Origin: a virus
Strand: one strand, 5' to 3'
IMG/VR virus record: IMGVR_UViG_3300029822_001076
DNA length: 64,000 nucleotides
Made by a program: the position numbers and the translations under genes. Numbering within the stretch: the first letter of the stretch is position 1; the number at the start of each line of letters is the position of its first letter. The notes below the pieces were generated by a model, which was not told the origin of the DNA, made no database searches, and saw only the letters and a list, made by a program, of their open reading frames with translations. Shown here piece by piece: positions 7,987-61,000 of this stretch.

Positions 7987-9108
7987 ATGCTCCCCTGGAA
8001 CGAGATCGAAACCCGAGCCATCGCCTTCCAGCGCAAATGGCGCACCAGCCCCGGCACCGAAAAACAGGATGACATCAAATTCATCCAGGACTTCCTCCAC
8101 GTCTTCGGTGTCGACTGGCAAACCGGCTTCCCCCAACACCAGATCATCCTCCCCAGCGGCAAACCCAACTACATCGACTACCTGCTCCCCGGCAAGATCC
8201 TGATCGAAATGAAATCCAGGGGCGAGTCCCTCGAAGCCGCCCACACCCAGGCAATGAACTACGTCCGTGGGCTCAAACCCGAAGATATCCCCCGGCTCAT
8301 CATGGTTTGTGATTTCTACAAAGTCCAGGTCTTCAACTACGACAAAAAACACCCTTACAAACCTTTCAAAATAACCGAAATGCGCAGACACCTGCGCATC
8401 TTCAGCCGCCTGGCTGGCTTTGATGCCGACCCCGAAGCGCGCACCGAGATCGAGCTAAACACTGATGCCTCCTACAAAATGGCGAAGCTCCACGATGCCC
8501 TCAAAGAAAACGGCTATTCCGGTCACGAGCTTGAGGTCTACCTGGTGCGCCTGCTCTTTTGCCTTTTTGCTGATGATACCGGCGTGTTCGAAAAAGGCGC
8601 CTTCTACAACTACATCAAAGCCTCCAGCTCCGATGGCAACGACCTCGGAGGCAGGCTCTCCATGCTTTTCCATACGCTCAACACGCCTCCCGAAAACCGC
8701 ATGACCACTCTGCCCGAAGTGTTAAAACGCTTCCGCTATATCAACGGTGCCCTCTTTGCCGAACGGCTGCCCATGTCTTTCTTCTCTGCCAAAATGCGCG
8801 CCATCCTGCTCGAGTGCTGCGACTTCGACTGGACCCAAATCAGCCCTGCCATTTTTGGCGCTATGTTCCAGGGCGTCAAAAACCCGCAAGAGCGCCGTGA
8901 GCTGGGCGCACACTACACCTCCGAAGAAAACATCCTCAAGGTCATTCGCCCCCTCTTTCTGGACGAACTACAGGAAGAATTCGAGCGCTCCAAAAGTACC
9001 ATCGCCGAACTGAAAGCCTTCCACCGCAAGCTCGCCTCGCTCACCTTTCTCGAAATGATAATACCGAAATTGATACAATTTAACGATTGCAAAAGAGCGG
9101 TTGCTTAG
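7987..9108 (+). pseudogene. 5' half of an MmeI-like Type IIL restriction-modification enzyme (nuclease, helical spacer, start of MTase), cut by the prophage at 9053
   Basis: MLPWNEIETRA start, nuclease motif IDYLLPGKILIEMKS, PAIFGAMFQG, ELGAHYTSEENILKVI. Ends LTFL-E followed by a phage-derived tail. Confidence 0.9.
9052..9081. other. attL: GA core (9052-9053) plus attP arm containing TTGATACAATTT (9070-9081)
   Basis: Codon usage changes abruptly here. The arm is the exact reverse complement of 59344-59355, and both arms lie 16 bp from the GA core. Confidence 0.9.
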
Positions 9109-9170
9109 GGGGTTCAAAAGTTTTTAGGGGTGTGCAATATGCCCTCTTGGAAAGAGGAGGAGCGATTAAA

Positions 9171-10268
9171 ATGGGATTGCTTGATTTTTTTAGGAAAAAG
9201 AGAAAACTAAAGAAAAATGATGTGTCAATAACTGACCAGATATTGGAAAAAGAAACTTCTTCAATTCCAGACTCTGAAAAACAATATTATCAAGAAGATG
9301 AGTACTATACATCCAAGGTTTTTGAGGGAAGTCCTTTTGAAAAAGATATTATTTCATTAGAAGAGAGAAAAAAGACAAGCATTCCATCACGAAAGGGCCT
9401 TTTTGTTAGTGAAATACTTTTGCTACATTACTGTTCAAAAGGTACTTATCCAAATCCTCAGAATGGCTACCCAGGATTTTGGTGGTTCGCATACGGAATC
9501 AGAGACGTTGGAGCCGCTCTACGAAGTCTTGAAAGTAGAGGATTCATTGAGTTAGGGCCTGCTGGTGCGGCACTTAAGTCTCTTACGATTACACAGCTTA
9601 AAGAAATTCTGAGAGAGCATAATCTAAAACTATCAGGCAAAAAAGATGAACTAGTTTTGAGAGTTTATGATAATGTTTCTGAGACTGAGCTTTTAGATGC
9701 AGGTATTGAAAGAAAGTATATGTTGACAAAGTCTGGCGAAGAAGAACTTTCTGAAAATGAGTATGTGGCATATATGCATAGTCATAGTAAATATACAGAT
9801 TTTACCGTTTGGGATTTAAACTGGATGCTCGGATATGACGACAAGAGTCATTATAAAGAAATAATAGACAGCAAACACAAAGAGATAGAAAACAGGTTAG
9901 AACAGTCCAATAAAAAATTTATGGATGATATAAAATCATACGACCCAAACGGTTATCGAGAACTTCGAAATCAAGATGAGCAAATTAAAGCTATACAAGA
10001 AGCAGACAGAAAATATGCCCAGGACAAAGATTTGATGTGGATAATTAATTTTTGGGAGAGAATCTGGCAAAACGGGGGTCCCATCTTCGAAGGCTCGCAT
10101 TGGATGTTCAGATTGCCAGATTTCTATATTAAAGCTAAACGATATGATGATGCGATTGCCTTATGCGAAAGAATTAAGGTAACTCGACAATCGTACTATC
10201 ATCAAAAAGCAGATAACTATATTAAGAAAATAGAAGAGAAAAAGGCGAAAGAAGAATCCAAGAAGTAA
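9171..10268 (+). CDS. SAP-domain-containing cargo protein of unknown function
   Basis: SAP motif LTITQLKEILREHNLKLSGKKDELVLRV. RBS GAGGAGG before ATG 9171. AT-rich. Confidence 0.65.
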   Translation: MGLLDFFRKKRKLKKNDVSITDQILEKETSSIPDSEKQYYQEDEYYTSKVFEGSPFEKDIISLEERKKTSIPSRKGLFVSEILLLHYCSKGTYPNPQNGYPGFWWFAYGIRDVGAALRSLESRGFIELGPAGAALKSLTITQLKEILREHNLKLSGKKDELVLRVYDNVSETELLDAGIERKYMLTKSGEEELSENEYVAYMHSHSKYTDFTVWDLNWMLGYDDKSHYKEIIDSKHKEIENRLEQSNKKFMDDIKSYDPNGYRELRNQDEQIKAIQEADRKYAQDKDLMWIINFWERIWQNGGPIFEGSHWMFRLPDFYIKAKRYDDAIALCERIKVTRQSYYHQKADNYIKKIEEKKAKEESKK

Positions 10269-10345
10269 TAATGAGATCTTATAAATCGGCAAAAAAGTAG
10301 TCTGTATAAGTTGCTTTGTAAAACTTATTCAAGAAGATAATAACC

Positions 10346-11902
10346 TTAAATCTCCATCCCGTTTCTGAAGATAAAGGTCAGCTTTCCATCTCTTGAAACC
10401 TTGGAATAATCAAGCAGACTTTGCCAGAGAAGCGGGCTGAAAGTTGCCATCTCATCTTCGGATAGTAGAGTCTTTATAAATCGCCCGGCCTGAATGTGCC
10501 GGGTTTTCTTGTCTTCAATCTTTTCATTGATGGCATCATATTTTTTCTTCACACCGTTAAACCGCTCAGTCATCTCATCAAATTCCTGATTGTACTTTTC
10601 CTGATCCAAGGCCACTCGGGCGTTATTTTGAATAGCCTGTTCCATGAGATTTGAGATGGACTCCATTTCTGCATAGAGCTTGTCTCGCTCAATCTCCAGC
10701 TCTTTTGTGCTGTAGGCGACGGTTTCAATGGCCTGAAAGTTTGCTTGAATCTGCTTACGGTCTTTCATCAGAATGTTTACGGCTTTCATAAAGGCTTCTT
10801 TGATCTCATTCTCTGTAAAGTGCGGAGTTTGACATTTTTCCTTAAACTTGCTGTTGCACTGCCAGATCGTACGCTTATATTTGCTGGTGGAATGCCAGAC
10901 CTTAGAACCGTACCAGTCTCCACAGTCCTCGCATTTTAGCTTCCCTGAAAAGATGGATACGCTGTTCTTTGATTTCCTGTAATCATGCTCAAGGAGCGTT
11001 TGAACGAAATCCCAAGTTTCAGGCTCAATGATGGCTTCGTGATTATTCTTCACATAGTACTGAGGGATTTCACCCTCATTTTTCTTTTTCTTCTTGGTCA
11101 GAAAATCGACGGTGAAAGACTTCTGCAAAAGTGCATCACCTTTGTATTTTTCGTTGGTCAGGATTGATTTGACACTTTGTGCGCTCCACTTATCTTTGCC
11201 GCCCGGCGTTTTAATCCCTCGAGCTGTCAGCTCTTTGGCAACTCCGTAGCAAGATCGTCCTTCAAGGAAGAGTGCATATAAAAGCTTCACGCTTTTTGCT
11301 TCTTCGGGATTGATGATGAGATTGCCGTCCTCTCCTCGGTCATAGCCTAAAAAGCGACTAAAAGGCACGGTTACTTTTCCATCTGCAAATCGCTTCCTTT
11401 GTCCCCAGGTGCAGTTTTCAGAAATAGATCTGGATTCTTCCTGGGCAAGAGAAGACATGATCGTGATGAGAAGTTCGCCTTTGGAGTCGAGCGTTTGAAT
11501 GTTTTCCTTCTCGAACCAGACCTCGATGTTTTTCTCTTTGAGCTTCCTAACGGTCGTTAAAGTATCAACGGTATTTCTTGCAAAACGGCTGACCGATTTT
11601 GTGATGATAAGGTCAATCTTTCCGTCTAAGGCATCGTTAATCATAGCCTTAAACTCGACCCGGTCTTTGGTGTTCGTTCCTGTAATGCCCTCATCAGCAT
11701 AAACCCTGACAAATTCCCAGTCTGTTCGATTTTTGATGTAGTTGGTGTAATAGTCGACCTGAGCTTCATAGCTGGTTGCTTGTTCTTCACTGTCGGTAGA
11801 AACACGGGCATAAGCAGCGACTCGTCTTTTCCTCGGAGAGTCAATGGGCATAGCCGTCTTTTTATTTATCTTGGCGGGTATTGTTGTTACTGACTTGACC
11901 AT
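10346..11902 (-). CDS. Large serine recombinase (second of tandem pair)
   Basis: AAYARVSTDSEEQ catalytic motif, ITKSVSRFARN, recombinase domain, Zn-ribbon CEDC...WQC, coiled coil. Confidence 0.93.
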   Translation of the reverse strand: MVKSVTTIPAKINKKTAMPIDSPRKRRVAAYARVSTDSEEQATSYEAQVDYYTNYIKNRTDWEFVRVYADEGITGTNTKDRVEFKAMINDALDGKIDLIITKSVSRFARNTVDTLTTVRKLKEKNIEVWFEKENIQTLDSKGELLITIMSSLAQEESRSISENCTWGQRKRFADGKVTVPFSRFLGYDRGEDGNLIINPEEAKSVKLLYALFLEGRSCYGVAKELTARGIKTPGGKDKWSAQSVKSILTNEKYKGDALLQKSFTVDFLTKKKKKNEGEIPQYYVKNNHEAIIEPETWDFVQTLLEHDYRKSKNSVSIFSGKLKCEDCGDWYGSKVWHSTSKYKRTIWQCNSKFKEKCQTPHFTENEIKEAFMKAVNILMKDRKQIQANFQAIETVAYSTKELEIERDKLYAEMESISNLMEQAIQNNARVALDQEKYNQEFDEMTERFNGVKKKYDAINEKIEDKKTRHIQAGRFIKTLLSEDEMATFSPLLWQSLLDYSKVSRDGKLTFIFRNGMEI

Positions 11903-13647
11903 TTTTTCTCCTTCCTTATTTTCTTCATGCGCTCGCTTGCTTCTTTGCGGTGCTCAGGATCGCTCCAGTATTCTTTCATGCCTTTTAAGGCTTTCTTGCG
12001 ACGTTCCTTGCTCCAGGGCGTGCCCCGTTTCTTTTCTTCGTAGTGCCTTTCTTCGAAGTGGCCGTCACGGAAGTGGAAGGAGACGGTATTATCTGCTATC
12101 TCGCAGTAATCCATCGCCTTATCCATTGCTTCTTCGCTATATTCATCAAGGCCTAAAACATCGCAGACTAAAGCGTTCAAGGTCGATTCCTGAATAGTGT
12201 TTGACGGACACTCACTAATCTTCGTTCGACATCTCAAGTAATATTCTGTTGTGCCGTCTTTTAGAGTTCTCCTTTGTCCACTAAAACTGTTGCCGCATCT
12301 GGCACACCTGATAAATCCTGTATAGGGAGTTGCCGGATTTTTTAAACCGTTGGTATCTTTGCTTCGCTTTATCCTTTTGTATCTTTCTTTGTATTCGGGT
12401 GTCCAGGCATCTTTTCTGGCAGTGGATACGTAGGTGCGATGAATAACCGAACCATCGGCCATAAAAAATTCCAGATGGTCTTTTCCTGTGACATCGATAT
12501 GATCTACTTTTTCAAGAAAGATCTCGTCATCAAATTCATCGATGTCGAGAACCTCGCAGATAATTTTCTTGAGCTGTTCCTCGTTTATATCACCGGTGCC
12601 ACAGGGATTTCCCTGTCCCGCTTTTCTTGTCGCGCATATCCAGCTCCTTAATTTCCCGCTCTTAGTGTTTCTGGTTGAACGTTGAAAACTCCGATTGCAG
12701 TGTTTGCATTTGATTTTCGAGGTTAAAGCGGATGTCTTGATATGCGGATTGGCAAAAGCCCCCAGCTCCCGTTTTCTCTGCCTTATTTCCTGTACCTTGT
12801 TGAAAGTTTCCTCGCTGATGATGGCGGGGTGGGTGTTTCTCGCATAATATTGAGGAAGTTCACCATTGTTGTACTTGGTTTTTCCGTCTTCGATGTAGGT
12901 TTTCTGAAAGAGCGTATTTCCGGTGTAGCGTTCCTGCTTTAAGATTTGGCGAATGCTGTTATTTCCAAAATGGCCGCCCGTATAGGACTTGACGCCCATC
13001 TCTTCGAGCTGCTTTTCTGTCTTTTCCGCTGATATGCCGTTTAAGAAGTTATCGTAAATAAGCCTTACGATCTTTGCTTCTTCCTCAACAATGACAAACT
13101 CTTTGCCCGTCCAGCGGTAGCCGTAAATATGAAAGGAATTCCCGATGCCTTTTTGAAAGTTCTTGCGGATGCCCCATTTCACATTTTCGGAAATGGACCT
13201 GCTTTCCTCTTGGGCAAAGGAAGCAAGAAGCGAAAGCATCAGCTCACCGTCTTCAGATAAGGTATGAATCTTTTCTTTTTGAAAACGCACTTCAATGCCT
13301 AAATCCTTCAGCTCCCTCACTGTCTCCAAAAGGTCGACCGTATTTCTTGCAAAGCGCGAGATGGATTTTGTCAAGATGATGTCGATTTTCCCATCCCGTG
13401 CATCACTTAGCATCCTTTGAAATTCCGGTCTGTCTGTTGTTAACCCTGAGACGGCTTTGTCGGCATAGACTCCTGCATACTCCCAGTCGGCATTTCCCTG
13501 AATAAGCTTGCTGTAATAGCTGATTTGAGCAGAGAGCGAATGGGGCGTTCTGCCTTTCTCGATAGATATCCGAGCATAGGCAGCCACCTTTCTTTTCCTT
13601 GGCGGCTCCATTTTCACGGCGTTCACTTTTTGTATTATTTTCGTCAT
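11887..13647 (-). CDS. Large serine recombinase (first of tandem pair) with two Zn-ribbon regions
   Basis: AAYARISIEKG, ILTKSISRFARN, CKHC and CARC ribbons. Confidence 0.92.
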   Translation of the reverse strand: MTKIIQKVNAVKMEPPRKRKVAAYARISIEKGRTPHSLSAQISYYSKLIQGNADWEYAGVYADKAVSGLTTDRPEFQRMLSDARDGKIDIILTKSISRFARNTVDLLETVRELKDLGIEVRFQKEKIHTLSEDGELMLSLLASFAQEESRSISENVKWGIRKNFQKGIGNSFHIYGYRWTGKEFVIVEEEAKIVRLIYDNFLNGISAEKTEKQLEEMGVKSYTGGHFGNNSIRQILKQERYTGNTLFQKTYIEDGKTKYNNGELPQYYARNTHPAIISEETFNKVQEIRQRKRELGAFANPHIKTSALTSKIKCKHCNRSFQRSTRNTKSGKLRSWICATRKAGQGNPCGTGDINEEQLKKIICEVLDIDEFDDEIFLEKVDHIDVTGKDHLEFFMADGSVIHRTYVSTARKDAWTPEYKERYKRIKRSKDTNGLKNPATPYTGFIRCARCGNSFSGQRRTLKDGTTEYYLRCRTKISECPSNTIQESTLNALVCDVLGLDEYSEEAMDKAMDYCEIADNTVSFHFRDGHFEERHYEEKKRGTPWSKERRKKALKGMKEYWSDPEHRKEASERMKKIRKEKKWSSQ

Positions 13648-13677
13648 GAACTATCACCTCCACTCATATACATCACT

Positions 13678-13854
13678 CTAAAGAGGATAAATAGCAAGTA
13701 ATAAATGGCCGATTATGGGCTGATATAAGTCTTCAAAATGGTGCATTAAATTCCGGCTTTCTTCGGCTGTCAGAAGCCCTTTTTCGTACAGGTTTTCAAC
13801 CAGCAGGAAGGCTTCTTGATACCTTGATTCTCTTTCAAATTGCTCCTTTGTCAT
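13678..13854 (-). CDS. 58-aa SHOCT-like small protein (below the ORF-track cut-off)
   Basis: Read manually as MTKEQFERESRYQEAFLLVENLYEKGLLTAEESRNL... It overlaps the upstream stop (ATGA) in the recombinase operon. Confidence 0.7.
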   Translation of the reverse strand: MTKEQFERESRYQEAFLLVENLYEKGLLTAEESRNLMHHFEDLYQPIIGHLLLAIYPL

Positions 13855-14258
13855 GAAGAACCACCCCCGAAGCGGTCAGCGATATAGCATTCATGGGAGC
13901 AGTACTTTCGGTTTTTATTTCCGTATGAATGAAAGGCCTTCCGGCAATAAGCACAGGTCAGCTCGTAGTAGGCTTTGCGCTTTACCTTCTCCGGATGATC
14001 TTTCCACCAGGAGAGCCTGCATTCATCGGAACAGAAGCTTTTCTGCTTTGCTCCTACGCTCTGCGTGAGCTTCTTTCCGCACTTTTTGCAAAAGAGAACT
14101 TCAATAGCATCTGTAACGCTTCGGTTTCCCGTCAGCCCGTTTCGTCTGCAGTGAGACTTCACGGTGTTGACGGAAAGGCCCAGTTTTTGAGCGATCGCTT
14201 TGTAGCCTGCGCCTTTGTTTCTTAATTTTCCGATGGCTTTTCTCTGGAGGTCATTCAT
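13851..14258 (-). CDS. HTH plus zinc-finger DNA-binding protein
   Basis: GYKAIAQKLGLSVNTVKSHCRR HTH, then CKKC, FCSDEC, CAYC and YCSHEC. Confidence 0.75.
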   Translation of the reverse strand: MNDLQRKAIGKLRNKGAGYKAIAQKLGLSVNTVKSHCRRNGLTGNRSVTDAIEVLFCKKCGKKLTQSVGAKQKSFCSDECRLSWWKDHPEKVKRKAYYELTCAYCRKAFHSYGNKNRKYCSHECYIADRFGGGSS

Positions 14259-14472
14259 AGAAGACCCCCGCTTTTTCTTTCAGCCACTCGGCTGCACAGG
14301 ATTTGCAATAGACGCAGGTTGTATGAAGATCGGTATCTTCTTCTTTCAAAACGTCACTCAGGTTCACCTGGATTTCTTTTCCGCATTTAGGGCAAATGGA
14401 GTAGACGTTTTTATCAGATAGGCGGGTGATAACCTTGCTGTTTTCTGAAAGTGTCAATTTGGTATAAAACAT
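14251..14472 (-). CDS. Small zinc-finger phage protein
   Basis: CPKC...CKSC. RBS GGAGG. Confidence 0.65.
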   Translation of the reverse strand: MFYTKLTLSENSKVITRLSDKNVYSICPKCGKEIQVNLSDVLKEEDTDLHTTCVYCKSCAAEWLKEKAGVFYE

Positions 14473-14507
14473 GATCTGTCCTCCGTTTTTTTGTGATAGG
14501 GAAAACT

Positions 14508-14549
14508 CCCTTCACTTCCCCCTTGGACAGATCCGGTGTTTTTGGGCAA
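14508..14549 (-). promoter_or_regulatory. 42-bp motif copy 1 (TTGCCCAAAA-N9-YTGTCCAAGGGG-N3-GTGAAGGG), putative phage-sigma promoter
   Basis: Same fixed-spacing motif as at 19623-19664 and 29843-29884. Each copy lies just upstream of a gene. Confidence 0.7.
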
Positions 14550-16538
14550 TTAATCTTTCTGATAAAATGAACAAGTGAAGCCATCCGCATCAAGCTTTAA
14601 TCCTTCAGCCCATTCAGGTGTCCGGCTCATCTGCTCACATACAGCCTGTACCGACATGCGGGGATCGGCTTCGATGACGATCTCATCGTGAACATGCATG
14701 ACAATGTCGGAGTATTTAAAGGTCATAAGGGCACTGCATAAGATGTCCCTGGAAATAGCCTGCACGATGTTTTCGACAAGCTTTGCGCCGTAGGTTTCAA
14801 TTCGCTCCCAGCGCTTACCCGTCCCTACGCCTTCGTAAGTGATGGACTCACCGCCGAAGCGGTTTTCTTCAATGCGGGGTTTTGCATAGAAAAGCTCTCG
14901 ACCGGACGGAAGGGTGATAATGAGCATGCCGGACTCATAGCGAAAGCGGATATTTTTTACTTCCTTTTTCCTCGATCGCTCTCTGACAGCAGCCATAGCC
15001 GCCCGGTCAATGTCCTGCCAGAGCATGACAATATTAGGGTTCGTCGCACGCCAGGCACTTACCAAGTTCGGCAGTTCCTCTTCCAAAAGCCCCATCTCAA
15101 GAGCACCCATTGCTTTTAAGGCTCCGACCGAGCCGCCGTAGCCACAGGCGAGTTCCGCTATCTTTCCTTTTTGCCTGAGATGTGCATTCGCACCGTGCTT
15201 TTCTACAGGAACGCCGAACATCTCACTTGCCGACCTACAGTAGATATCACCACCCTCAGAGAAAAGTGCCATCCGCCATGTTTCTTCCGCCAGCCAGGCT
15301 AAAACTCTTGCTTCAATGGCTGAGTAGTCAGCGACAAGAAAGATGCGTCCTTTTTTCGGAATAAAGGCGGTGCGGATCAGTTCCGATAAGACTTGCGGAA
15401 TAGAATCAAAGAGCAGACTTAAGGATTTAAGGTCATCATCCTTGACCAGCTTTCTTGCAAGCTCCAAATCCTCCATCTTGTTTCTTGGGAGGTTTTGAAC
15501 CTGAATGAGCCTTCCTGAAAAGCGGCCGGTGCGGTTGGCTCCATAGAATTGCAAAAGTCCTCTCGCACGGTCGTCACGACAGACGCAGTCACTCATCGCT
15601 TCGTATTTCTTAACGCTGGACTTGGCAAGTTCCTGCCTGGTTTCAAGAACCTCTTTGACATCGCCTGAAGCATCTTTAAGGAGTTCTTTTACTGCCTTTT
15701 TATCTAGAGACTCTGTTGCGATTCCCTTTGATAAAAGCCACTCTTTTAGCTGCAGGACAGAATTGGGATTTTCAAGCCCGGTGATTCTTCTCAGTTTTGC
15801 CATGCTTTCTTCACGCACGGCTTCATTCATCCGGATGGCATTTTTAGCGAGGTCTTTATCCAGCAAAATGCCGAGGTCGTTTATTTCCTGATCTCTGTGA
15901 TAAATTTCCCATTCCTGATCCGGCATGTGAAAACGGGAAAGCTTATCGTGGATGAGAAGTTCCGTTTCCACATCTCGCTTGTTGTAGGATTTGTAAAGTT
16001 CCCATTTTTCCGGATCGTGAGAGGGCAGGTTTCTTGTTCTGCCGCCGTTTGTTCGAGTTGCCTTACAGGGAAGGGAAAAATAGCGGATGAGATCTTTACC
16101 TGTCTTTAGTTTTTGTTTATCCAGTCCTAAAACCTCACCGACCCCTTCCAAAGATAAGGGAAGCCCCAGATAGGCAGACCAGGCCATATCGCAGTACCAG
16201 GACTTAGGAGATAGGTAATGAAGATACTCGGGATCGTGGCCAAAGGGTAGCGGCTTTTCTAATACATAGCCCTCTCTTTTCAGCCATTCCGAGATACAAA
16301 CCCGCTCAAACTGAGCATTAAAAGCCCACTTGATGACATCATCTGAAAGAAGGGCATGGATGAGTCTCTCCGGCACCTTTTCACCCTGAGCGAGGTCAAT
16401 CGTCTTTATCTCTCCTCCGTCGATGGCATAAGAAAGAAGCAGTATTTCAAAGTCCGGCTCCTCGACATACCTGAAAACTCCTGTTTTTCTTAAATCGGCA
16501 GAGGAAAAAGTTTCAATGTCTAAGCATATTGTTTTCAT
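14550..16538 (-). CDS. Phage family A DNA polymerase
   Basis: Exo I LDIETF, motif A DYSAIEAR, motif B KIAELACGYG, motif C VHDE. Confidence 0.93.
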   Translation of the reverse strand: MKTICLDIETFSSADLRKTGVFRYVEEPDFEILLLSYAIDGGEIKTIDLAQGEKVPERLIHALLSDDVIKWAFNAQFERVCISEWLKREGYVLEKPLPFGHDPEYLHYLSPKSWYCDMAWSAYLGLPLSLEGVGEVLGLDKQKLKTGKDLIRYFSLPCKATRTNGGRTRNLPSHDPEKWELYKSYNKRDVETELLIHDKLSRFHMPDQEWEIYHRDQEINDLGILLDKDLAKNAIRMNEAVREESMAKLRRITGLENPNSVLQLKEWLLSKGIATESLDKKAVKELLKDASGDVKEVLETRQELAKSSVKKYEAMSDCVCRDDRARGLLQFYGANRTGRFSGRLIQVQNLPRNKMEDLELARKLVKDDDLKSLSLLFDSIPQVLSELIRTAFIPKKGRIFLVADYSAIEARVLAWLAEETWRMALFSEGGDIYCRSASEMFGVPVEKHGANAHLRQKGKIAELACGYGGSVGALKAMGALEMGLLEEELPNLVSAWRATNPNIVMLWQDIDRAAMAAVRERSRKKEVKNIRFRYESGMLIITLPSGRELFYAKPRIEENRFGGESITYEGVGTGKRWERIETYGAKLVENIVQAISRDILCSALMTFKYSDIVMHVHDEIVIEADPRMSVQAVCEQMSRTPEWAEGLKLDADGFTCSFYQKD

Positions 16539-16552
16539 TTACTCCCTCCATA

Positions 16553-16583
16553 GAGAGAAAGGGCGGAGCCTTTGACCCCGCCC
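16553..16583 (-). terminator. Intrinsic terminator-like hairpin just upstream of the polymerase gene
   Basis: On the minus strand GGGCGGGG-loop-CTCCGCCC is followed by TTTCTCT. Confidence 0.55.
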
Positions 16584-53942: not shown

Positions 53943-53956
53943 GGAGGGATGTAGAG

Positions 53957-54154: not shown

Positions 54155-54158
54155 TGCT

Positions 54159-54731
54159 ATGAAGAAGTTTTATAGGCTTTCTGAGACCATCAATAAAAAA
54201 GAAGATGAGCGGGTTGTATCGGTGACGATAAAGCCGCTTTTAACAGATATGTCAGGCACCGTTTGGATCACAGACCTCATGCTGCAGGAGGGCGATCGGG
54301 TGACGGGCTTTCATCCGCATACGGAAACCATGCTTCAAAAAGAGCGTGAGGGTGAAACTATAAAAGAACCTGTCTGGTATAACGGCATCGTCCGTGGGAA
54401 GGAAACGCTGATTCTTTTTAATCTAGGAAAGACCTCAACAGGTCTTGATCTGAAGCTTTATCCAAAATCGAATATGGAAGGCATAACCATTTCGCAAGCG
54501 GCAGGCGGACAAAGAGCCTATTTCCCGGATGCCCTTCAAAAGGATGACGAGCTAAGTTTCTCCGCATCGGAGAGAAGCACAACAAAAAATGGACAGCCCT
54601 TTCAAAAAGAAGGCTTTTATTCTTACAGTGCGGCTTGGGACTCCAAGCACAATGTAGAACTCCCTCAAGGGAAATCTGCCAGAGTGTTGTTTACCTTGCA
54701 GGAAATGGATGAAGGGGGTGAGCTGTTTTGA
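54159..54731 (+). CDS. Tail-associated protein
   Basis: Start at ATG 54159. ITDLMLQEG pattern resembles the preceding ORF. Confidence 0.6.
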   Translation: MKKFYRLSETINKKEDERVVSVTIKPLLTDMSGTVWITDLMLQEGDRVTGFHPHTETMLQKEREGETIKEPVWYNGIVRGKETLILFNLGKTSTGLDLKLYPKSNMEGITISQAAGGQRAYFPDALQKDDELSFSASERSTTKNGQPFQKEGFYSYSAAWDSKHNVELPQGKSARVLFTLQEMDEGGELF

Positions 54732-57193
54732 TTAACCCATTGAAAAATAAAGAGATCATGGTCTGGACCTTTATGGGAAATGCCAGGATGTATGAAGCTT
54801 TAAGCAAATATGGAGACCGCATCAGTCAGATCGGTCTTTTTTCTTTTAAGGTAAGGGCGACTGGCGAAATCTACGAATCAGGAGTCTCCATCTCGAACAT
54901 GATGCCTTATATTCAGCAGTGGCCGCATATCCGCTGGCTTTTAACGGTGGCAAATGACGGCTACAATCCTATCTTTAAAGCAATACGGGAGAATACAAAC
55001 GGCGCACAGGATATGTTCTTATCCGAACTTATCCGCATCATGCAAAAATACCCCTGGTGCGATGGAGTGGATATTGACCTTGAAGGTGGTGGAGATTATT
55101 CCACAGCGGCGAAGTCCACAGCAATGTTTCAGAATATCCATCATGCCGTGAAAAGTTATGATGCAAGAAAACGCATCAACATCTGCCTTCCCGGCATGAC
55201 CAGCGTGAACGGCTCGGTCGGCGGAGAGAACTGGTGCGTTTATGCTGACCTTGCTCCTTACTGCGATACGGCATCCATTATGAGTTACGGCATGGCTTGG
55301 GCGGGTTCTGCTCCGGGGCCGGTGTCTCCAAGGGATTGGCTGGAAGGTATCTACGACTATGCCGTATCCGTGATGCCGGCGTCAAAGATTTACTTCGGTA
55401 TGCCGGCTTACGGCTGGAACTGGCAGATTTACGACACGCCGGAGAACCTGGGCAAATATTACCGAGGAGTTTCACACACTTATTACGGAGCAAAGAACTG
55501 GATGACGGGCTACTATCAGTTCAAAGAAACAGCACCTGCATCTCCTCAGATTCCTATCATCGCTTATTGGGATGATTACGATAAAGGGCCGTTTGCCCTT
55601 CCGCATGTCTACGACTACATGGAAGGACAAGACGCAGAGCATTACAGCTATCCTTTGATGGGTGAGGTTTATAAGCGAAGGCGTTATCTCACCTCTTACG
55701 GGAAAACACAAAAGACAAACTTTGGCGGTGTTGTTGTCGATAGAAATGCGCAGCCGGACTCCTATTCCGGCATTGTCTCCATATCAGAATACATGGTTAC
55801 GCTAGGCGATAATGGTGAAGTTTTATATGAGTTTGATATATCGGAAGCTGGCACATACGATCTGGTCGTAAAGCTTGGCTTTCCTTTATGGGATAAGAAC
55901 AGTGCTTATCTTTCGCTTGACGGCACAAGTATCCTCATCGAGGAAAACAGGCTTTGGTGGCCATACTGGCGGTCGACTTTTTGGAAGTGTGCATGGAAGG
56001 AAGTCTCTCTTTCTGCCGGGACACATACACTCGCCGTGTCGGTTGCCGCCAAAGGCGTACAGTTTTATGGTTTTAAAGTCTGTCAGTCTTTCAGCGAGGA
56101 AACGTCCGTTAGTGAAGCAAGCTACACCTTGTCTCCGAGGAAATTTAAAGACATTAACGGCGTGATGGTGGGACCGAGGGAGGGCTTTAAACTCACCTTT
56201 GAAATGCTCCGAAGAAAAGCGGACTCCGCTCTTATCTGGTATGAGGACTTTAGAGACAGAATCATTTTGCCTGAAAGTTACTGGGCTGTTCTTTCCGGAG
56301 AATGGGAGGTCTGGCAAAAGGACGACTTTGAGAAAAACCGTCCCTATTCACAGCTTGAAGGCTATGGAGAGCTTGCGCTGAATTATGAGGGATTTCAAGA
56401 TCTGCATTTACGGGCGCAGCTCATTTTCCCTGAAAGCTTTACCGGGAGAGCCGGGATTTTCTTAGGTAATCTTTTCTGTTGTCTCAACTACGGAACGCAG
56501 GCAGTGGAGCTTTATCAGGGAGATGTTTTATTAGGAAGCTATGAGACCTCGTTTCAAAAAACACCTGGTGCTGATATACGTGTTTCACCCAATATTTATA
56601 CGATTGAGATGAGGAAGCGTGGTACGAGTGTCAGGGTGTATTCGGGTGCTTCAAACAGACTGCGTTTTCAAAGAACGGTGACGGATACATCAGGCTTTGC
56701 AGGCATAAGGGCGGATAATAAAGTACACTGTCAGCTTTTTCGTGTGGGAGATAGTTATACCTATGAACCTTACGAGCGCTTTGATGTGGTGCTGCCGGAC
56801 GAAAGCCTGGCAAGCTTTGGACGAATACAGAGAACAGGGGTCTTATGGGATGAGGAGTTTCAAGTCTTTACTGTCACTTCTGACATTGAGGAACATGAGA
56901 CAAGGACCGAAAACATCTCTCTTGATTACGAGTTCTTTCATTCAAAACTTCTACCGCTGGTCTGCGGTAATGACTATCAAGTGACGGTGATTCCAAAAGA
57001 CATAAATGTCTGGATATCTCGGATTTTCTTAGGTGATTCAGACGGCTTTTCCATCCTTTATTACCAGGATGTGGATTCGCTCATCTATTGGGCTAATGAA
57101 GCCGCCTATCACTGGAAGGTCAGAGGGATGTGTATGTGGTCGCTCGGCCAAGAGGATTTGAGGCTCTGGGACTGGTTGCCCAAGCAAGTGTAG
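54728..57193 (+). CDS. Glycoside hydrolase family 18 tail-associated protein with carbohydrate-binding regions
   Basis: Catalytic DGVDIDLEG, IMSYG, GMPAYG, WSLGQED. Confidence 0.85.
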   Translation: MINPLKNKEIMVWTFMGNARMYEALSKYGDRISQIGLFSFKVRATGEIYESGVSISNMMPYIQQWPHIRWLLTVANDGYNPIFKAIRENTNGAQDMFLSELIRIMQKYPWCDGVDIDLEGGGDYSTAAKSTAMFQNIHHAVKSYDARKRINICLPGMTSVNGSVGGENWCVYADLAPYCDTASIMSYGMAWAGSAPGPVSPRDWLEGIYDYAVSVMPASKIYFGMPAYGWNWQIYDTPENLGKYYRGVSHTYYGAKNWMTGYYQFKETAPASPQIPIIAYWDDYDKGPFALPHVYDYMEGQDAEHYSYPLMGEVYKRRRYLTSYGKTQKTNFGGVVVDRNAQPDSYSGIVSISEYMVTLGDNGEVLYEFDISEAGTYDLVVKLGFPLWDKNSAYLSLDGTSILIEENRLWWPYWRSTFWKCAWKEVSLSAGTHTLAVSVAAKGVQFYGFKVCQSFSEETSVSEASYTLSPRKFKDINGVMVGPREGFKLTFEMLRRKADSALIWYEDFRDRIILPESYWAVLSGEWEVWQKDDFEKNRPYSQLEGYGELALNYEGFQDLHLRAQLIFPESFTGRAGIFLGNLFCCLNYGTQAVELYQGDVLLGSYETSFQKTPGADIRVSPNIYTIEMRKRGTSVRVYSGASNRLRFQRTVTDTSGFAGIRADNKVHCQLFRVGDSYTYEPYERFDVVLPDESLASFGRIQRTGVLWDEEFQVFTVTSDIEEHETRTENISLDYEFFHSKLLPLVCGNDYQVTVIPKDINVWISRIFLGDSDGFSILYYQDVDSLIYWANEAAYHWKVRGMCMWSLGQEDLRLWDWLPKQV

Positions 57194-57271
57194 CTCGTAT
57201 CAAGTAATTCATTTTTGACGGAAGTGTCTGCCAAAGGGCGGACATTTTTTATTTGGAAGGAGGATTTCAAC

Positions 57272-57688
57272 ATGAAACAAATCTGGTCTGCCATTCAGGC
57301 AGCATTCACGGCTGTAGGAGGTTTTCTCGGTTGGTACTTGGGAGGTCTGGACGGATTTCTCTATGCACTCATTGTTTTTGTCGCAGCAGACTACATCACA
57401 GGAGTGCTCTGTGCCATTTACGACAAAAACCTCTCAAGTGAAGTCGGCTTCAAGGGCATCGCCAAGAAGGTGCTCATTTTTGTTCTTGTAGGCATCGGGA
57501 ACATTATCGATGTTTCTATCTTAAAACAAGGCAGTGCCATCAGGACGGCGGTCATCTTTTTCTATCTCTCAAATGAAGGTATTTCCATTTTGGAAAACTC
57601 TGCGCATCTGGGGCTTCCGATACCTAAGGCCTTGAAAAATGTGCTGGAAACAATTTCAAAGGAGGACGAGGGCGATGAATCTCAATAA
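57272..57688 (+). CDS. Holin (TcdE / phage holin 4-like)
   Basis: TM helices, DYITGVL, GIAKK, NEGISILEN...GLPIP. Start at ATG 57272. Confidence 0.88.
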   Translation: MKQIWSAIQAAFTAVGGFLGWYLGGLDGFLYALIVFVAADYITGVLCAIYDKNLSSEVGFKGIAKKVLIFVLVGIGNIIDVSILKQGSAIRTAVIFFYLSNEGISILENSAHLGLPIPKALKNVLETISKEDEGDESQ

Positions 57689-58799
57689 GCTGATTTTTAC
57701 AGAAAACGCCTGCTACAAAGCAGGAAGGAAAATAAAAGTAAAAGGCATCATGGTGCATTCGACTGGAGCAAACAATCCTTATTTAAAACGCTATGTCGGT
57801 CCGGATGACGGGAAACTGGGAAAGAATCAGTACAACAATCATTGGAATCAGCCGATGGATCGAGCAGTCTGCGTGCATGGATTTATCGGGAAGCTTCAGA
57901 ACGGCTCCATTGCCACCTATCAGACGCTTCCTTGGGATCACAGAGGATGGCATGCAGGCGGTGCGGCAAACAACACGCATACCAGCTTTGAAATTTGCGA
58001 GGACGGATTAAATGACCGCTCGTATTTTGAGAAAGTCTATAAGGAAGCGATAGAACTTTGTGCGTATCTCTGTAAGCTCTATGCACTTAATCCGCTGGCG
58101 GACGGAGTCATCATCGGGCACTACGAAGGGCATCAAAGAGGGATCGCATCCAATCACGGTGATCCAAGGCACTGGTTCTCAAAGTTCGGAAAAAGCATGG
58201 ACACTTTCCGTCAGGATGTGCAAAAGTTGATGAGTGGAAGTTCAGTCACTCCGACACCGAGTGATGATCCTCCGGCAAAGCTTGAGGCAGGCTATTACCG
58301 GGTGCGTAAATCTTGGCAGGATAAAAAGAGCCAGATTGGAGCCTATAAGGTGCTTGCCAATGCCAAGAGAAAGGCTGATGAAAACAGCGGCTACTTTGTC
58401 TTTGATGATGAAGGAACTGCCATTTATCCGGAAAAGTCTGCTGCTGAATATGGAACTTATACGGTAGTCAGCGGCGACAGTCTTTGGCGGATTGCCGCCA
58501 GACTTTTAGGCGATGGAAGAAGGTATCCGGAAATCAAGAAATTAAATGGACTGACATCTGATGTTATTCATGCCGGACAAAAACTCAAGATACCGGGAGT
58601 AGCACCAGATGTCACAGCGATAAAAGTTGGAGACACTGTTAGGGTGACGGCATCTAACTATGCCACCGGCCAAACGGTGCCTAATTGGGTGAAGGAAAGA
58701 ACTCACAAGGTCTCACAGGTGGAAAAAGATAAAGTGCTCCTCGGTTGGCCGGATGGTATTGCGTCGTGGCTGCCGATTGATGGAGTGAAGAAAATTTGA
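57675..58799 (+). CDS. Endolysin: N-acetylmuramoyl-L-alanine amidase with LysM
   Basis: MVHSTG, GWHAG, FEICE, NHGDP, LysM YTVVSGDSLWRIA. Start at ATG 57675. Confidence 0.9.
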   Translation: MNLNKLIFTENACYKAGRKIKVKGIMVHSTGANNPYLKRYVGPDDGKLGKNQYNNHWNQPMDRAVCVHGFIGKLQNGSIATYQTLPWDHRGWHAGGAANNTHTSFEICEDGLNDRSYFEKVYKEAIELCAYLCKLYALNPLADGVIIGHYEGHQRGIASNHGDPRHWFSKFGKSMDTFRQDVQKLMSGSSVTPTPSDDPPAKLEAGYYRVRKSWQDKKSQIGAYKVLANAKRKADENSGYFVFDDEGTAIYPEKSAAEYGTYTVVSGDSLWRIAARLLGDGRRYPEIKKLNGLTSDVIHAGQKLKIPGVAPDVTAIKVGDTVRVTASNYATGQTVPNWVKERTHKVSQVEKDKVLLGWPDGIASWLPIDGVKKI

Positions 58800-58899
58800 A
58801 CTTAGTGAAAAAACCCTGATTGATGATTGATATGCATGGACTCCTTGTTTGTCTTATACTGCTGACAACTGGATATTAATGAGCAGAGGGTAAAACAAA

Positions 58900-59073
58900 A
58901 TGAGAACCATAACAATCAAAGTTACGAATGAGGAATATGCCCATCTTGAAAGCATGGTAGGAAATGATCTTCAGCCGGATCAGACACTAGAAGAGTTTGT
59001 GCTAGAAGTGTTAGCAGATAGTTTGCCGTATCTTAGAAGAAACCATTGGCCGAAATATAGGCTGCAAGACTAA
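58900..59073 (+). CDS. 57-aa protein with ribbon-helix-helix-like N-terminus (below the ORF-track cut-off)
   Basis: MRTITIKVTNEEYAHLESMV..., read manually. Confidence 0.5.
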   Translation: MRTITIKVTNEEYAHLESMVGNDLQPDQTLEEFVLEVLADSLPYLRRNHWPKYRLQD

Positions 59074-59099
59074 CGACAGACCATCACGATAATAGGTTT

Positions 59100-59143
59100 T
59101 GCCCCACGGTCTAAGTTGAACTTAGGTCGTGGGGCTATTTTTG
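59100..59143 (+). terminator. Strong intrinsic terminator near the right prophage end
   Basis: GCCCCACGGTCTAAG / CTTAGGTCGTGGGGC stem (two G-U pairs), then TATTTTT. Confidence 0.75.
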
Positions 59144-59343
59144 TTTCTTGAACCTTTTAACGATTGCCATACTTTTTAACGATTCGTCTTCCGTTTTGTG
59201 GTAGGGGGTGCAAAATTCCGAACTTAAATAAAACAATTATCTGAAACAGGTGAAAAATCGCTTCAGTTTTACAAAAGTTGACAGGCGTAAATCTGCTGAA
59301 ATCCCGCTATTTCAAGGCGTTTCAGCCGTTTTTAGGCATTTGA

Positions 59344-59373
59344 AAATTGTATCAAAATGAGTAAGAACATAGA
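59344..59373. other. attR: attP arm containing AAATTGTATCAA (59344-55) plus GA core (59372-73)
   Basis: Mirror of attL. Sequence resumes as GAC CCT GCC TGT GGC (DPACG). Confidence 0.9.
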
Positions 59374-61000
59374 CCCTGCCTGTGGCTGCGGCAATTTCCT
59401 GATCGTCACCTACCAAAAGCTGCGCCAGCTCGAGTTTGAAGTTCTGAAACTGCTCAGCGAATCCGGGCAGATGGTCCTCTTCGACGACCCCACCAAGGTC
59501 ACCGTCGACCAGTTTTTTGGCATCGAAATCGAAGACTTCCCCTGCGAGATCGCCAAGGTCTCCATGCTTCTTACCAAACACCTCATGGACCAGGAGATCA
59601 GCCATTATTTTGGCGGCAATTTTATCGACTACCCCATCCGCGACAACGCCAGCATCAGCAACGCCAACGCCCTGCGCATGGGTTGGAACGAAGTCATCCC
59701 CGCCCACCGTCTCAATTACATCATGGGCAACCCACCCTTCAACGGCGCCCGAACCATGAGCACAGAGCAGAAATCAGATCTCCAGCACGTTTTTGGCGAT
59801 GTGAAAAATGTTGGCAATCTCGATTTTGTCACCCCCTGGTACAAGAAATCAGCAGATATGATGGATATCAACCCAGATATCCAAACCGCACTCGTCTCCA
59901 CCAACTCGATCGTGCAAGGCGATCAAGCCGGTATCCTCGGTGAATATATGTTTGGTCGCGATTTCGAGATCAACTTTGCCTACCGCACCTTCAGATGGTC
60001 CAACGCTGCCAAAGGCAAAGCTGCGGTCCATTGTGTCATAATCGGATTCAGCAAAAGCGGTCATTCAAAGCAATCAAAGAAAATCTATAACGGAAACGAA
60101 GAAAATGTCGTCTCACAGATAAATCAATATCTTATCGACGCACCAAAGATAATTATCCGAAGCCGTTCTAAACCAATCTGCGACGTTCCTGAAATTGGCA
60201 TTGGCAACAAGCCTATTGATGGTGGCAACTATCTGTTTTCAAAAGCAGAGATGGATGAATTTATCGAGCAAGAACCTGGCTCTGTTAATTACTTTCGACC
60301 GTGGTATGGCGCTGATGAATTCATTAATCGAAGACCTCGTTATTGCCTATATCTGAAACATGCTTTTCCATCTGACCTCAAAAAGATGCCTCTTGTAATG
60401 AAGAGAATTGAAAATGTCAGGCAATTCAGGCTGAAAAGTGTAAGCCCGGGTACTGTGAAACTTGCTGAAACACCGACAAAATTTCATGTAGAAAATGAAC
60501 CAACTTCCACATATTTAGTTCTTCCAGAAACCTCATCAGAAAATAGAGCGTACATACCAATGGGGTTTTTGGAGCCAGAAGCCTTGTGTTCAAATGCAGT
60601 ACGGATTTTACCAAATGCAACACTCTTTCATTTTGGCATTTTAACCTCCTCTACCCATATGGCATGGATGCGCACGGTTGCCGGTCGGTTGAAAAGTGAT
60701 TATCGCTATTCAAAAGACATCGTCTACAACAACTTCCCCTGGCCCGACCCCACCCCCGAACAAAAAGTAAAGATCGAACAAACCGCCCGGGCGATCCTCG
60801 CCGCCCGTGAGCGCTACCCCAAAGCCAGCCTCGCCGACCTCTACGACGAGCTTACCATGCCCCCCGACCTGCGCAAAGCCCACCAGGCAAACGACAAAGC
60901 CGTATGGGAAGCCTACGCCAAACCCTGGCACCCCCTCCCCTCCGAACCCGCCTGCGTAGCGTATTTGATGGAGCTGTATCAAAAAGCAACAAAGTTGTAG
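59372..61000 (+). pseudogene. 3' half of the MmeI-like Type IIL RM gene (MTase motifs I-IV, TRD, C-terminus)
   Basis: DPACGCGNFL, FFGIEI, IMGNPPF, RLKSDYRYS, VYNNFPWP, LADLYD...DLRKAH. Confidence 0.9.

What the first reader, a model, noticed from the sequence alone, without database searches (positions are those of the whole stretch)
7987..61000. Prophage splits an MmeI-type restriction-modification gene inside its SAM-binding codon, a potentially reversible defence switch
Seen: the left half ends ...TTT CTC GA| (9053) and the right half begins |C CCT GCC TGT GGC TGC GGC AAT (59374). Deleting 9054-59373 recreates CTC GAC CCT, giving LTFLDPACGCGNFL in frame. The result is one 897-aa ORF (355 + 542 codons) with no other stop or frameshift in either half. 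Established: Type IIL enzymes such as MmeI fuse nuclease, gamma-class m6A MTase and TRD in one chain. Serine-integrase excision is precise, and gene-restoring excision is known (active lysogeny, e.g. comK and skin elements). Inference: integration disarms a host defence enzyme and excision re-arms it. Because both halves are still intact, the insertion is either recent or the switch is maintained by selection.
Basis: partly seen in the sequence, partly recalled or inferred. Interest (0 to 1): 0.9.

Follow-up and report, generated by a model that had tools for sequence, protein, structure and literature searches.

The report
Prophage splits MmeI restriction gene
A complete 50-kb prophage sits exactly in the cofactor-binding codon of an MmeI-type restriction enzyme gene, put there by a pair of serine integrases from a widespread family that lands at the same Asp-Pro codon of many DNA methylase genes; a regulated "defence switch" is not shown.

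Summary
Window 7987-9053 and 59374-61000 are the two halves of one 897-aa MmeI-type restriction-modification gene. They are separated by a 50,320-bp siphovirus prophage, and the crossover falls on the GA of the Asp codon of motif I (LTFL|DPACGCG).

Both unrecombined sites exist in public data. An uninterrupted allele (attB) lies in an Anaerolineaceae-like MAG. A phage contig that joins the right end to the left end (attP) lies in IMG/VR. Each overlaps the window's junctions by exactly 2 bp.

The integrase is a tandem pair of large serine recombinases, not a single gene. At least 22 of 80 related loci abut a DNA methylase fragment that ends at the same Asp codon: 12 Type I hsdM, 9 Type III-like mod and 1 MmeI. 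One pair that is 100% and 99.8% identical sits in hsdM in one genome and in mod in another.

The event is therefore ordinary site-specific lysogeny by a methylase-targeting integrase family. It silences the host enzyme, while the phage brings its own Type I system. Precise reversal is possible, but nothing shows a regulated switch.

The closest published precedent is streptococcal ICEs with serine-integrase triplets in hsdM. This scan has noted the same phenomenon on other DNA (e1-2003414, e1-982662).

The parts
7987..9053 (+). 5' half of the MmeI-type gene (355 codons plus GA of codon 356): PD-ExK nuclease domain, helical spacer and methylase motif X (GAHYT). In the lysogen the frame runs on for 18 phage-encoded codons to a stop at 9108.
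9052..9053 (.). GA crossover dinucleotide at attL.
   Evidence: The matches to the empty site L022 overlap by 2 bp, as do the matches to the attP contig L031.
9054..9078 (.). P' arm of attL: 16 nt followed by TTGATACAA (9070-9078). It is the inverted copy of the motif at attR.
   Evidence: The same layout occurs in 8 reconstructed attP sites.
9054..59373 (.). The integrated prophage, 50,320 bp counting one copy of GA.
   Evidence: Homology to the related phage records G002, L031 and L032 stops exactly at both ends. PHROGs and Pfam give a full set of siphovirus modules.
10346..11902 (-). LSR-B, a large serine recombinase of 518 aa, the one nearer attL.
   Evidence: Resolvase + Recombinase + Zn_ribbon_recom. 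It is 54% identical to its counterpart in the G043 element that also splits an MmeI gene. The nearest solved catalytic domain is a conjugative transposon recombinase, 3G13.
11887..13647 (-). LSR-A, a large serine recombinase of 586 aa with two zinc-ribbon stretches. Its gene overlaps the LSR-B gene by 16 nt.
   Evidence: An LSR-A homologue lies directly upstream of LSR-B in nearly all of 80 related loci.
13851..14258 (-). Small helix-turn-helix protein next to the integrase pair.
   Evidence: HTH_38. Its role was not tested.
14550..16538 (-). Phage family A DNA polymerase. An exonuclease lies at 17301-18434.
20906..27396 (+). Phage-borne Type I restriction-modification system: hsdM 20906-22672 (plus a 139-aa ORF matching the C-terminal end of HsdM at 22669-23088), hsdS 23085-24404 and hsdR 24406-27396.
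   Evidence: GC is low, 37-41%. The region is absent from the related phages in G001, G002 and G044.
27405..29824 (+). Further cargo: an M78/IrrE-like peptidase (27405-28940) and a PDC-S14 candidate defence protein with DUF4357 (28943-29824).
37561..38805 (+). Phage ParB-fused DNA methyltransferase.
   Evidence: phrog_498. Its DPPY motif is at nt 38143.
40606..57193 (+). Packaging and virion genes: terminase large subunit 40606-42207, portal 42334-43458, major head protein 44076-45410, tape measure 48109-50619, and minor tail proteins 51420-53942 and 54728-57193.
57639..58799 (+). Endolysin (amidase_2 + LysM).
59101..59145 (+). Strong intrinsic terminator after the lysis gene. No promoter-like site lies between it and the right gene half.
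59347..59373 (.). P arm of attR: TTGTATCAA (59347-59355), 16 nt, then GA (59372-59373).
59374..61000 (+). 3' half of the MmeI-type gene (last base of codon 356, 541 codons and the stop): motif I onward, NPPF, target recognition domain and C-terminal domain.
   Evidence: It is 100% identical to the uninterrupted allele over 1609 nt.

Best explanation
A temperate siphovirus of 50.3 kb integrated by serine-recombinase attP x attB recombination into a chromosomal MmeI-type (Type IIL/IIG) restriction-modification gene. The host flank looks like Anaerolineaceae. The crossover is at the GA of the Asp356 codon, the first residue of methylase motif I.

The phage encodes two co-oriented large serine recombinases beside attL. 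Its attP is an imperfect palindrome: TTGTATCAA, 16 nt, GA, 16 nt, TTGATACAA. This integrase pair belongs to a widespread Bacillota family. The family's attB is the Asp-Pro codon pair of conserved DNA methyltransferase motifs: DPxCGxG in gamma-class enzymes (HsdM, MmeI) and DPPY/F-NTG in beta-class Mod-like enzymes.

In the lysogen the nuclease, spacer and motif X lie on one fragment. Motif I, motif IV and the recognition domain lie on another fragment, behind a phage terminator. Restriction and modification by this single-chain enzyme are therefore inferred to be off. The prophage meanwhile supplies its own Type I system and other defence cargo. Excision or curing would restore the gene exactly.

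Shown: the junctions, the attB and attP forms, the integrase genes, the family-wide target pattern and the intact halves. Inferred: which recombinase does what, loss of MmeI activity, and any fitness effect.
For: The junctions are exact and the joined ORF is open. The empty site L022 overlaps the junctions by 2 bp and has the same upstream gcvPB gene. An attP contig, L031, from a 94-97% identical phage was found with an exact 30-mer and is collinear with both prophage ends. The related phage G002 loses homology exactly at 59373.

Both recombinases have the full domain set. Orthologous pairs occur in the G043 element, which splits another MmeI gene at the same codon. The right arms of four elements inserted in MmeI genes share TTGTATCAA at a fixed distance from GA.

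22 of 80 related loci abut a methylase 5' fragment that ends at the Asp codon. Pfam shows that the breaks fall at N6_Mtase profile position 51|52. attR sides continue as DPCCGSGG..NPPF or DPPYNTG. Identical integrases sit in hsdM and in mod.

The phage modules are complete. There is a terminator and no promoter ahead of the right half. Words from a 62-nt stretch centred on attR occur in 14 runs of 4 studies dated 2014-2025, and a 6.9-kb contig spans attL.
Against: No experiment or read-level data here show integrase activity, loss of methylation or excision in this strain. The attP contig comes from a relative, not from the identical phage. No recombination directionality factor was identified.

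It is unexplained how one integrase pair recognises such different sequences. The B arms are not conserved, and the shared degenerate motif is expected about 1.7 times per 64 kb by chance. In 58 of the 80 related loci no junction was located, so the target rule holds for a subset only. The host-like flank and the phage's nearest relatives belong to different phyla, which is unusual.
Confidence: 0.85

Rival explanations
1. Regulated defence switch (active lysogeny). The prophage is kept because the host gains from turning the MmeI enzyme off and on through reversible excision without lysis.
For: Excision would be exact. Both halves are intact. The lysogen junction words appear in samples spanning 2014-2025.
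Against: Site choice is a family-wide property of the integrases across three methylase classes and many hosts. The phage looks fully lytic-competent rather than domesticated. Empty alleles exist. In the likely source run only the lysogen form is assembled across attL. No condition-dependent excision is known.
Confidence: 0.1
2. Counter-defence by integration. The integrase family has been selected to land in methylase genes because switching off the resident restriction system benefits the element. The benefit could be its own unmodified DNA, its own Type I system or incoming kin.
For: The targets are restriction-system methylases whose loss also abolishes restriction: single-chain MmeI, HsdM and Mod. 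This phage installs a replacement Type I system whose hsdM reads DMACGTG, so it lacks the GAYCC core.
Against: Integration happens after the incoming DNA has already survived restriction. Progeny from an MmeI-off lysogen would be unmodified when they meet MmeI-positive hosts, which are the only hosts with this attB. No fitness data exist.
Confidence: 0.3
3. Neutral landing pad. Methylase motifs are simply very conserved, dispensable and horizontally widespread DNA. They make a convenient attB, and gene inactivation is a side effect.
For: This is the same logic as other serine-integrase targets inside non-essential conserved genes, such as rumA, mutT and hsdM (PMC4701971). The crossover sits in the most conserved codons of the gene. 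The same element family is seen in very different hosts.
Against: It does not explain why methylase motifs of two unrelated kinds (motif I and motif IV) are used by one integrase pair while other equally conserved genes are not.
Confidence: 0.45
4. Assembly chimera. The phage and the flanks do not belong together.
For: The flank looks like Anaerolineaceae (Chloroflexota). The phage's closest relatives are in Bacillota isolates. The window probably comes from a metagenome.
Against: A chimera would not place both halves of one gene on either side of a phage at the integrase's own 2-bp core, with attB and attP forms matching to the base. An independent contig assembly spans attL at even depth. 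Words from a stretch centred on attR recur in four studies.
Confidence: 0.02

Closest known systems
Streptococcal ICEs with a triplet of serine integrases inserted in hsdM (Ambroset et al. 2016, PMC4701971)
   Same: Several co-oriented large serine recombinase genes lie at one end of the element. Insertion is site-specific inside a restriction-system methylase gene and disrupts it, leaving 2-8 bp repeats.
   Different: Here the element is a tailed phage, not a conjugative element. It has two recombinases, not three. The target is an MmeI-type single-chain enzyme. The paper does not report the exact codon, use of several methylase classes by one integrase set, or any effect on the target gene.
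Active-lysogeny and intervening elements: Listeria phi10403S in comK, B. subtilis SPbeta in spsM (serine integrase SprA) and skin in sigK (from general knowledge)
   Same: A prophage or prophage-like element interrupts an ORF, and precise excision rebuilds it. SPbeta and skin use large serine recombinases.
   Different: Those cases have a demonstrated, developmentally or environmentally timed excision that serves the host. Here no timing, no host benefit and no excision without lysis is shown. The site is shared by a whole integrase family across unrelated hosts.
TnpX and TndX of Tn4451 and Tn5397, and other clostridial large serine recombinases
   Same: These are large serine recombinases of Bacillota mobile elements with a 2-bp crossover (PMC3158075 states a 2-bp target for TnpX; that it is GA comes from memory). 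The nearest solved catalytic domain to LSR-B is a conjugative transposon recombinase, 3G13.
   Different: They are single recombinases with other targets, and no methylase-motif preference is described for them.
CcrA/CcrB of SCCmec (from general knowledge)
   Same: A pair of paralogous large serine recombinases is encoded side by side and acts on one element.
   Different: Their target is the 3' end of rlmH, not a DNA methylase motif. They are only remote sequence relatives. A division of labour between LSR-A and LSR-B was not tested here.
MmeI (PDB 5HR4)
   Same: The uninterrupted allele aligns end to end with MmeI (E 1e-259), including ...LTFFDPACGCGNFL... at the insertion point.
   Different: The recognition sequence of this orthologue is unknown, and in this window the gene is split.

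Membership tests
MmeI-family Type IIL/IIG restriction-modification enzyme | Domain order MmeI_N, helical spacer, gamma-class methylase, TRD, C-terminal domain in one chain. | tested here: met
   The Pfam hits on the two halves add up to the full order. The intact allele P0003 carries all of them and matches the PADLOC REase_MTase_IIG model over its whole length.
MmeI-family Type IIL/IIG restriction-modification enzyme | Catalytic motifs: D-X9-ExK nuclease, methylase motif X, motif I and NPPF. | tested here: met
   All are present in the joined reading. The alignment to MmeI 5HR4 is end to end, E 1e-259.
MmeI-family Type IIL/IIG restriction-modification enzyme | Cuts about 20/18 nt from an asymmetric site and methylates one strand. 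| not testable with these tools
   This needs the expressed enzyme or a methylome.
Large serine recombinase (serine integrase) | Resolvase catalytic domain with the nucleophilic Ser, plus Recombinase and zinc-ribbon domains. | tested here: met
   Both ORFs have the domains. The ...YAR(V/I)S... segment is conserved.
Large serine recombinase (serine integrase) | A 2-bp crossover with no longer duplication, and an attP that is an imperfect inverted repeat of about 50 bp. | tested here: met
   GA overlaps at both junctions. Palindromic arms are seen in 8 reconstructed attP sites.
Large serine recombinase (serine integrase) | A recombination directionality factor that enables excision. | not tested
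   No candidate was identified. These proteins have no common sequence signature.
Active lysogeny / phage regulatory switch | Precise excision rebuilds the interrupted gene. | tested here: met
   Met in silico only.
Active lysogeny / phage regulatory switch | Excision without lysis at a defined time, followed by re-integration or maintenance, with a host benefit. | not testable with these tools
   Only assembled contigs were available. The source-like run shows the lysogen form alone.
Active lysogeny / phage regulatory switch | The arrangement is specific to one host gene and its regulation. | tested here: not met
   The same integrase family uses the homologous codon in hsdM, mod and other MmeI genes of many hosts.
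Multi-serine-integrase elements targeting hsdM (streptococcal ICE type) | Several tandem, co-oriented serine integrase genes at the element's end next to a disrupted methylase gene. | tested here: met
   Two genes lie 1.3 kb from attL. The pair is conserved in related loci.
Multi-serine-integrase elements targeting hsdM (streptococcal ICE type) | A conjugation module (relaxase, coupling protein, VirB4). | tested here: not met
   The element carries phage packaging, head, tail and lysis genes instead. No conjugation gene was seen among the ORFs scanned.

The most novel reading that the evidence does not exclude
These paired serine integrases have evolved to read a DNA signature shared by the Asp-Pro catalytic or cofactor motifs of DNA methyltransferases (motif I of HsdM and MmeI, motif IV of Mod). 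This gives their phages and islands a landing pad that travels with restriction systems across phyla. Integration acts as counter-defence: it switches off the resident restriction enzyme while the element installs its own, and excision re-arms the host enzyme.
Probability: 0.3. Interest if true: 0.8.

Novelty: new variant of a known kind. Interest (0 to 1): 0.62.

Why it matters
If these integrases systematically land in restriction-system methylase genes, lysogeny by such elements reshapes a cell's immunity in one step: the resident system goes off and the element's cargo system comes on. That would change which other phages and plasmids can enter.

It would also mean that many 'truncated' or 'orphan' methylase genes in Bacillota genome and metagenome annotations are really occupied attachment sites.

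For recombinase engineering, an integrase pair that accepts attB sites as different as hsdM motif I and mod motif IV, yet still avoids the rest of the genome, is an unusual specificity problem worth solving.

The apparent presence of a Bacillota-type phage in an Anaerolineaceae chromosome, if confirmed, would show how a target carried by mobile restriction genes can widen where an element can settle.

Tried and rejected
1. G001 and G002 as kin of the window. They share only phage modules. G002 has a different integrase module and a different flank, although its homology ends exactly at 59373.

2. Read-level test for attB and attP. Only Logan contigs were on offer. X1 has one contig across attL and no variant. 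In X10 and X13 contigs end exactly at 9053. One 750-nt X13 contig leaves the window at 9053, but its sequence was not shown. The result is inconclusive for excision.

3. The idea that a cluster of 11 substitutions in the LSR-A zinc ribbon (residues 315-337; window versus L032, L033 and L031) sets the target class. Rejected: the patch does not follow the class across the family, and L041 and L042 have the same proteins but different classes.

4. A shared degenerate attB motif, GAYCCNNNNTNYNNNNNNGG, as sufficient for targeting. It is expected 1.7 times per 64 kb by chance, so it is not sufficient.

5. Expression of the right half from a phage promoter. No promoter-like site was found, and a strong terminator lies upstream.

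6. Looser searches for junctions in the other 58 related loci gave nothing convincing.

7. Literature searches for MmeI with prophage, active lysogeny with restriction-modification, and serine integrases with methylase genes. They returned only the streptococcal hsdM precedent.

8. Complex prediction and structure prediction were not used, because no claim here rests on them.
Full report
**Observation**

The window reads ...CTCACCTTTCTCGA|AATGATAATACC... at 9053/9054 and ...AAGAACATAGA|CCCTGCCTGTGGC... at 59373/59374.
- The left piece (7987-9053) translates without stops into 355 residues that hit MmeI_N and MmeI_hel.
- The right piece (from 59375) gives 541 residues that hit MmeI_Mtase from profile position 26, then MmeI_TRD and MmeI_C.
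- Joined in a script, the two pieces give 2694 nt: 897 codons and a stop, reading ...KLASLTFLDPACGCGNFL....
- The joined reading keeps the nuclease motif D-X9-ExK at residue 64, motif X (GAHYT) at 307, motif I at 356 and NPPF at 475.

**The empty and the circular forms exist**

A protein search with the right half returned a 912-aa protein (P0003). It is 100% identical over that half and reads straight through the junction.
- Its contig (L022, an NCBI MAG labelled Chloroflexi bacterium) has the same upstream gcvPB gene.
- L022 matches window 6065-9053 at 98.4% and window 59372-60980 at 100%.
- The two matches overlap by exactly two bases, GA. That is attB.

An exact 30-mer built from the prophage's right end, GA and left end was found once in IMG/VR (L031).
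- L031 matches window 57489-59373 (96.9%), then 9052-9135, then 10345-20252 (94.4%).
- The two matches again overlap by 2 bp. That is attP, in a close relative of this phage.

A further related phage record (G002, 97% identical over the tail and lysis genes) loses homology exactly at 59373 and continues into a different flank. The ends of the element and the crossover dinucleotide are therefore fixed to the base.

**The insert**

The 50,320 bp between the halves carry:
- terminase, portal, major head protein, tape measure, minor tail proteins and an amidase-LysM endolysin;
- a family A DNA polymerase, an exonuclease, a D5-type primase, an SNF2 helicase and a ParB-fused methylase;
- a low-GC block (about 20.2-29.8 kb; GC) with a complete Type I hsdM-hsdS-hsdR set, an M78 peptidase and a PDC-S14 candidate defence gene. 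This block is missing from the closest related phages.

Next to attL, on the minus strand, lie two overlapping large serine recombinase genes: LSR-A (586 aa) and LSR-B (518 aa). They are 41% identical to each other, and each has Resolvase, Recombinase and zinc-ribbon domains.

A 16-bp-stem terminator follows the lysis gene. No promoter-like site lies between it and the right gene half. That half is therefore probably silent.

**The same codon is hit again and again**

Among the homologues of the right half were several proteins of about 555-565 aa. Their homology starts exactly at DPACG, after a short unrelated N-terminus.
- Their DNA shows TTGTATCAA at a fixed distance before GA, as in the window.
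- In one of them (genome G043) the left half of the MmeI gene lies about 95 kb away and ends at the same residue.
- The G043 attL has the mirror motif TTGATACAA 16 nt after GA. An orthologous LSR-A/LSR-B pair (44% and 54% identity) sits beside it.

A scan of one genome per species with an LSR-B alignment gave 80 loci, almost all with LSR-A directly upstream. I searched downstream of LSR-B for the arm motif and for methylase fragments.
- 22 loci showed the element abutting a host ORF that stops just before an Asp codon: 12 HsdM-type (...VY|D), 9 Type III Mod-like (...KCIYI|D) and 1 MmeI (...KFL|D).
- Pfam confirms HsdM_N plus N6_Mtase positions 2-51 on the attL side and N6_Mtase positions 52-311 on the attR side. 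It also confirms TypeIII_RM_meth and N6_N4_Mtase for the beta-class cases.
- In six genomes the attR was found with the pattern TTGTATCAA-N16-GAYCC. It continues as DPCCGSGG...NPPF, DPTCGSAG...NPPY, DPACGTSG...NPPF, DPPYNTG... or DPPFNTG....
- The elements range from 16 to about 95 kb in size.
- In the other 58 loci I could not locate a junction, and eleven of them have under 1 kb of sequence downstream. The rule therefore holds for a sizeable subset, not demonstrably for all.

**One integrase pair, several methylase classes**

- The window's pair is 96% (LSR-A) and 98% (LSR-B) identical to the pairs in Anaerosphaera multitolerans and in a Clostridia MAG. Both of those sit in a Mod-type gene.
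- L041 (in hsdM) and L042 (in a Mod-type gene) have 99.8% and 100% identical proteins.
- The reconstructed attP sites are strongly conserved palindromes. The attB sites share little beyond GAYCC and a few codon-imposed positions.
- A degenerate motif common to both target kinds is expected about 1.7 times per 64 kb by chance. It cannot explain the specificity.
- A hypervariable patch in the LSR-A zinc ribbon looked promising but does not follow the target class.

How the target is recognised remains unexplained.

**What this means for the finding**

The split gene is the product of ordinary serine-integrase lysogeny, carried out by an integrase family specialised on DNA methylase motif DNA.
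- MmeI-type enzymes carry nuclease, methylase and recognition functions in one chain. Separating motif X from motif I should therefore abolish both restriction and modification together. This is an inference.
- Exact reversal is possible, since the attB and attP forms exist.
- The insertion looks recent. There are 0 differences in 1609 nt on the right. The 31 differences on the left are 18 synonymous and 11 non-synonymous codons, so they look like older allelic variation.
- Nothing indicates a regulated switch. The phage is not domesticated, and empty alleles exist.
- In the source-like run the only contig across attL is the lysogen form. In two wastewater runs contigs merely end at 9053, which shows heterogeneity but not excision.
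- All 3 sampled words of a 62-nt stretch centred on attR occur in 14 runs of 4 studies from 2014 to 2025. The words are few, so this is weak evidence, but it speaks for a stable, widespread lysogen.

**Why methylase genes**

Two readings remain open.
- Landing pad: the motifs are conserved, dispensable and spread by horizontal transfer.
- Counter-defence: the resident system is switched off while the element brings its own. Suggestively, the phage's own hsdM reads DMACGTG at motif I, so it lacks the GAYCC core.

I rate the neutral reading somewhat higher. The data cannot decide between them.

**Comparison with what is known**

- The closest published case is the streptococcal ICEs with a triplet of serine integrases that insert site-specifically in hsdM, mutT or traG. 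That paper notes that the consequences for the target genes were never studied (PMC4701971).
- My searches of the held library found nothing on MmeI genes as phage attachment sites. They also found nothing on one integrase set using several methylase classes. That is not proof of absence.
- Two earlier notes of this scan describe the same phenomenon on other DNA: hsdM split at one codon, and a small cassette in the cofactor motif of an MmeI-type gene. I reached the pattern independently before reading them, and it agrees with both.

**An oddity**

- The flank (ABC transporters, mnmA, gcvH, gcvPA, gcvPB) has its named relatives in Anaerolineaceae MAGs at 73-84% identity (Pfam; weak support).
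- The phage is 95% identical over 9.9 kb to a prophage of an Anaerosphaera multitolerans isolate. It is 84.7% identical over its head genes to a deposited Anaerosphaera phage.
- A chimera cannot produce two base-exact junctions inside one gene. The integration is therefore real, and the phylum mismatch deserves a direct check.

**Verdict**

The 'defence switch' is not supported as stated. This is a new variant of a known kind of element, and its family-level target rule is more interesting than the single case.

Noticed in passing
window 1-7500 versus 9054-59373: The host-like flank has its named relatives in Anaerolineaceae (Chloroflexota) MAGs. The prophage's closest relatives are in Bacillota: 95% over 9.9 kb in an Anaerosphaera multitolerans isolate, and 84.7% to a deposited Anaerosphaera phage. 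This is a possible cross-phylum occurrence of one phage lineage.
   Followed up: partly
window 20217-29840: A low-GC cargo block (Type I RM, M78 peptidase, PDC-S14) is absent from the otherwise 91-96% identical phages in G001, G002 and G044. The hsdM in this block reads VLDMACGTGGML at motif I, so it lacks the GAYCC core used by this integrase family.
   Followed up: partly
window 22669-23088: A separate 139-aa ORF matches the last 110 positions of a Type I methylase model. The phage HsdM may therefore be split into two ORFs, either by a frameshift or as a natural two-part form.
   Followed up: no
window 61343-62662 and 63499-63969: Directly downstream of the MmeI gene lies an AbiP2-type defence reverse transcriptase (E 1e-161), followed by an IS-type rve integrase fragment. 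The empty-site contig L022 has different genes there, and the last six residues of the MmeI protein differ.
   Followed up: partly
window 7536-7940: The intergenic stretch upstream of the MmeI gene has 5- to 30-fold higher contig depth than its surroundings in all four runs laid, with many joints and loose ends. Short repeated matches to it also appear in L022. It is probably a multi-copy small repeat.
   Followed up: no
L014:511-1310 (flank of virus record G002): The flank beyond the end of the related phage holds an ORF that reads by eye like an Erm-type rRNA methyltransferase. No tool was run on it.
   Followed up: no
LSR-A residues 315-337 (window about 12637-12705, minus strand): Eleven of the 24 differences between the window's LSR-A and that of L032 fall in one 23-residue stretch of the first zinc ribbon. 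L033 and L031 share the alternative version. The patch does not track the target class.
   Followed up: yes
run X13, loose end before window 9052: Contigs carry the same P' arm joined to another flank. Read in frame, it ends ...IKLI|D, which is probably yet another methylase gene occupied by a related phage in that wastewater sample.
   Followed up: no
L063, and L122 (G049:C1:1373503): L063 carries the attP form of the element whose attR lies in L027. L122 shows a window-like right arm followed by GACCC, but the frame stops after four codons. It may be a secondary site or a remnant.
   Followed up: no
L023/L030 (G043), about 95 kb between the MmeI halves: This very large insert holds McrBC, a RES-domain gene and a second truncated recombinase near attR. 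It may be nested or composite elements.
   Followed up: no
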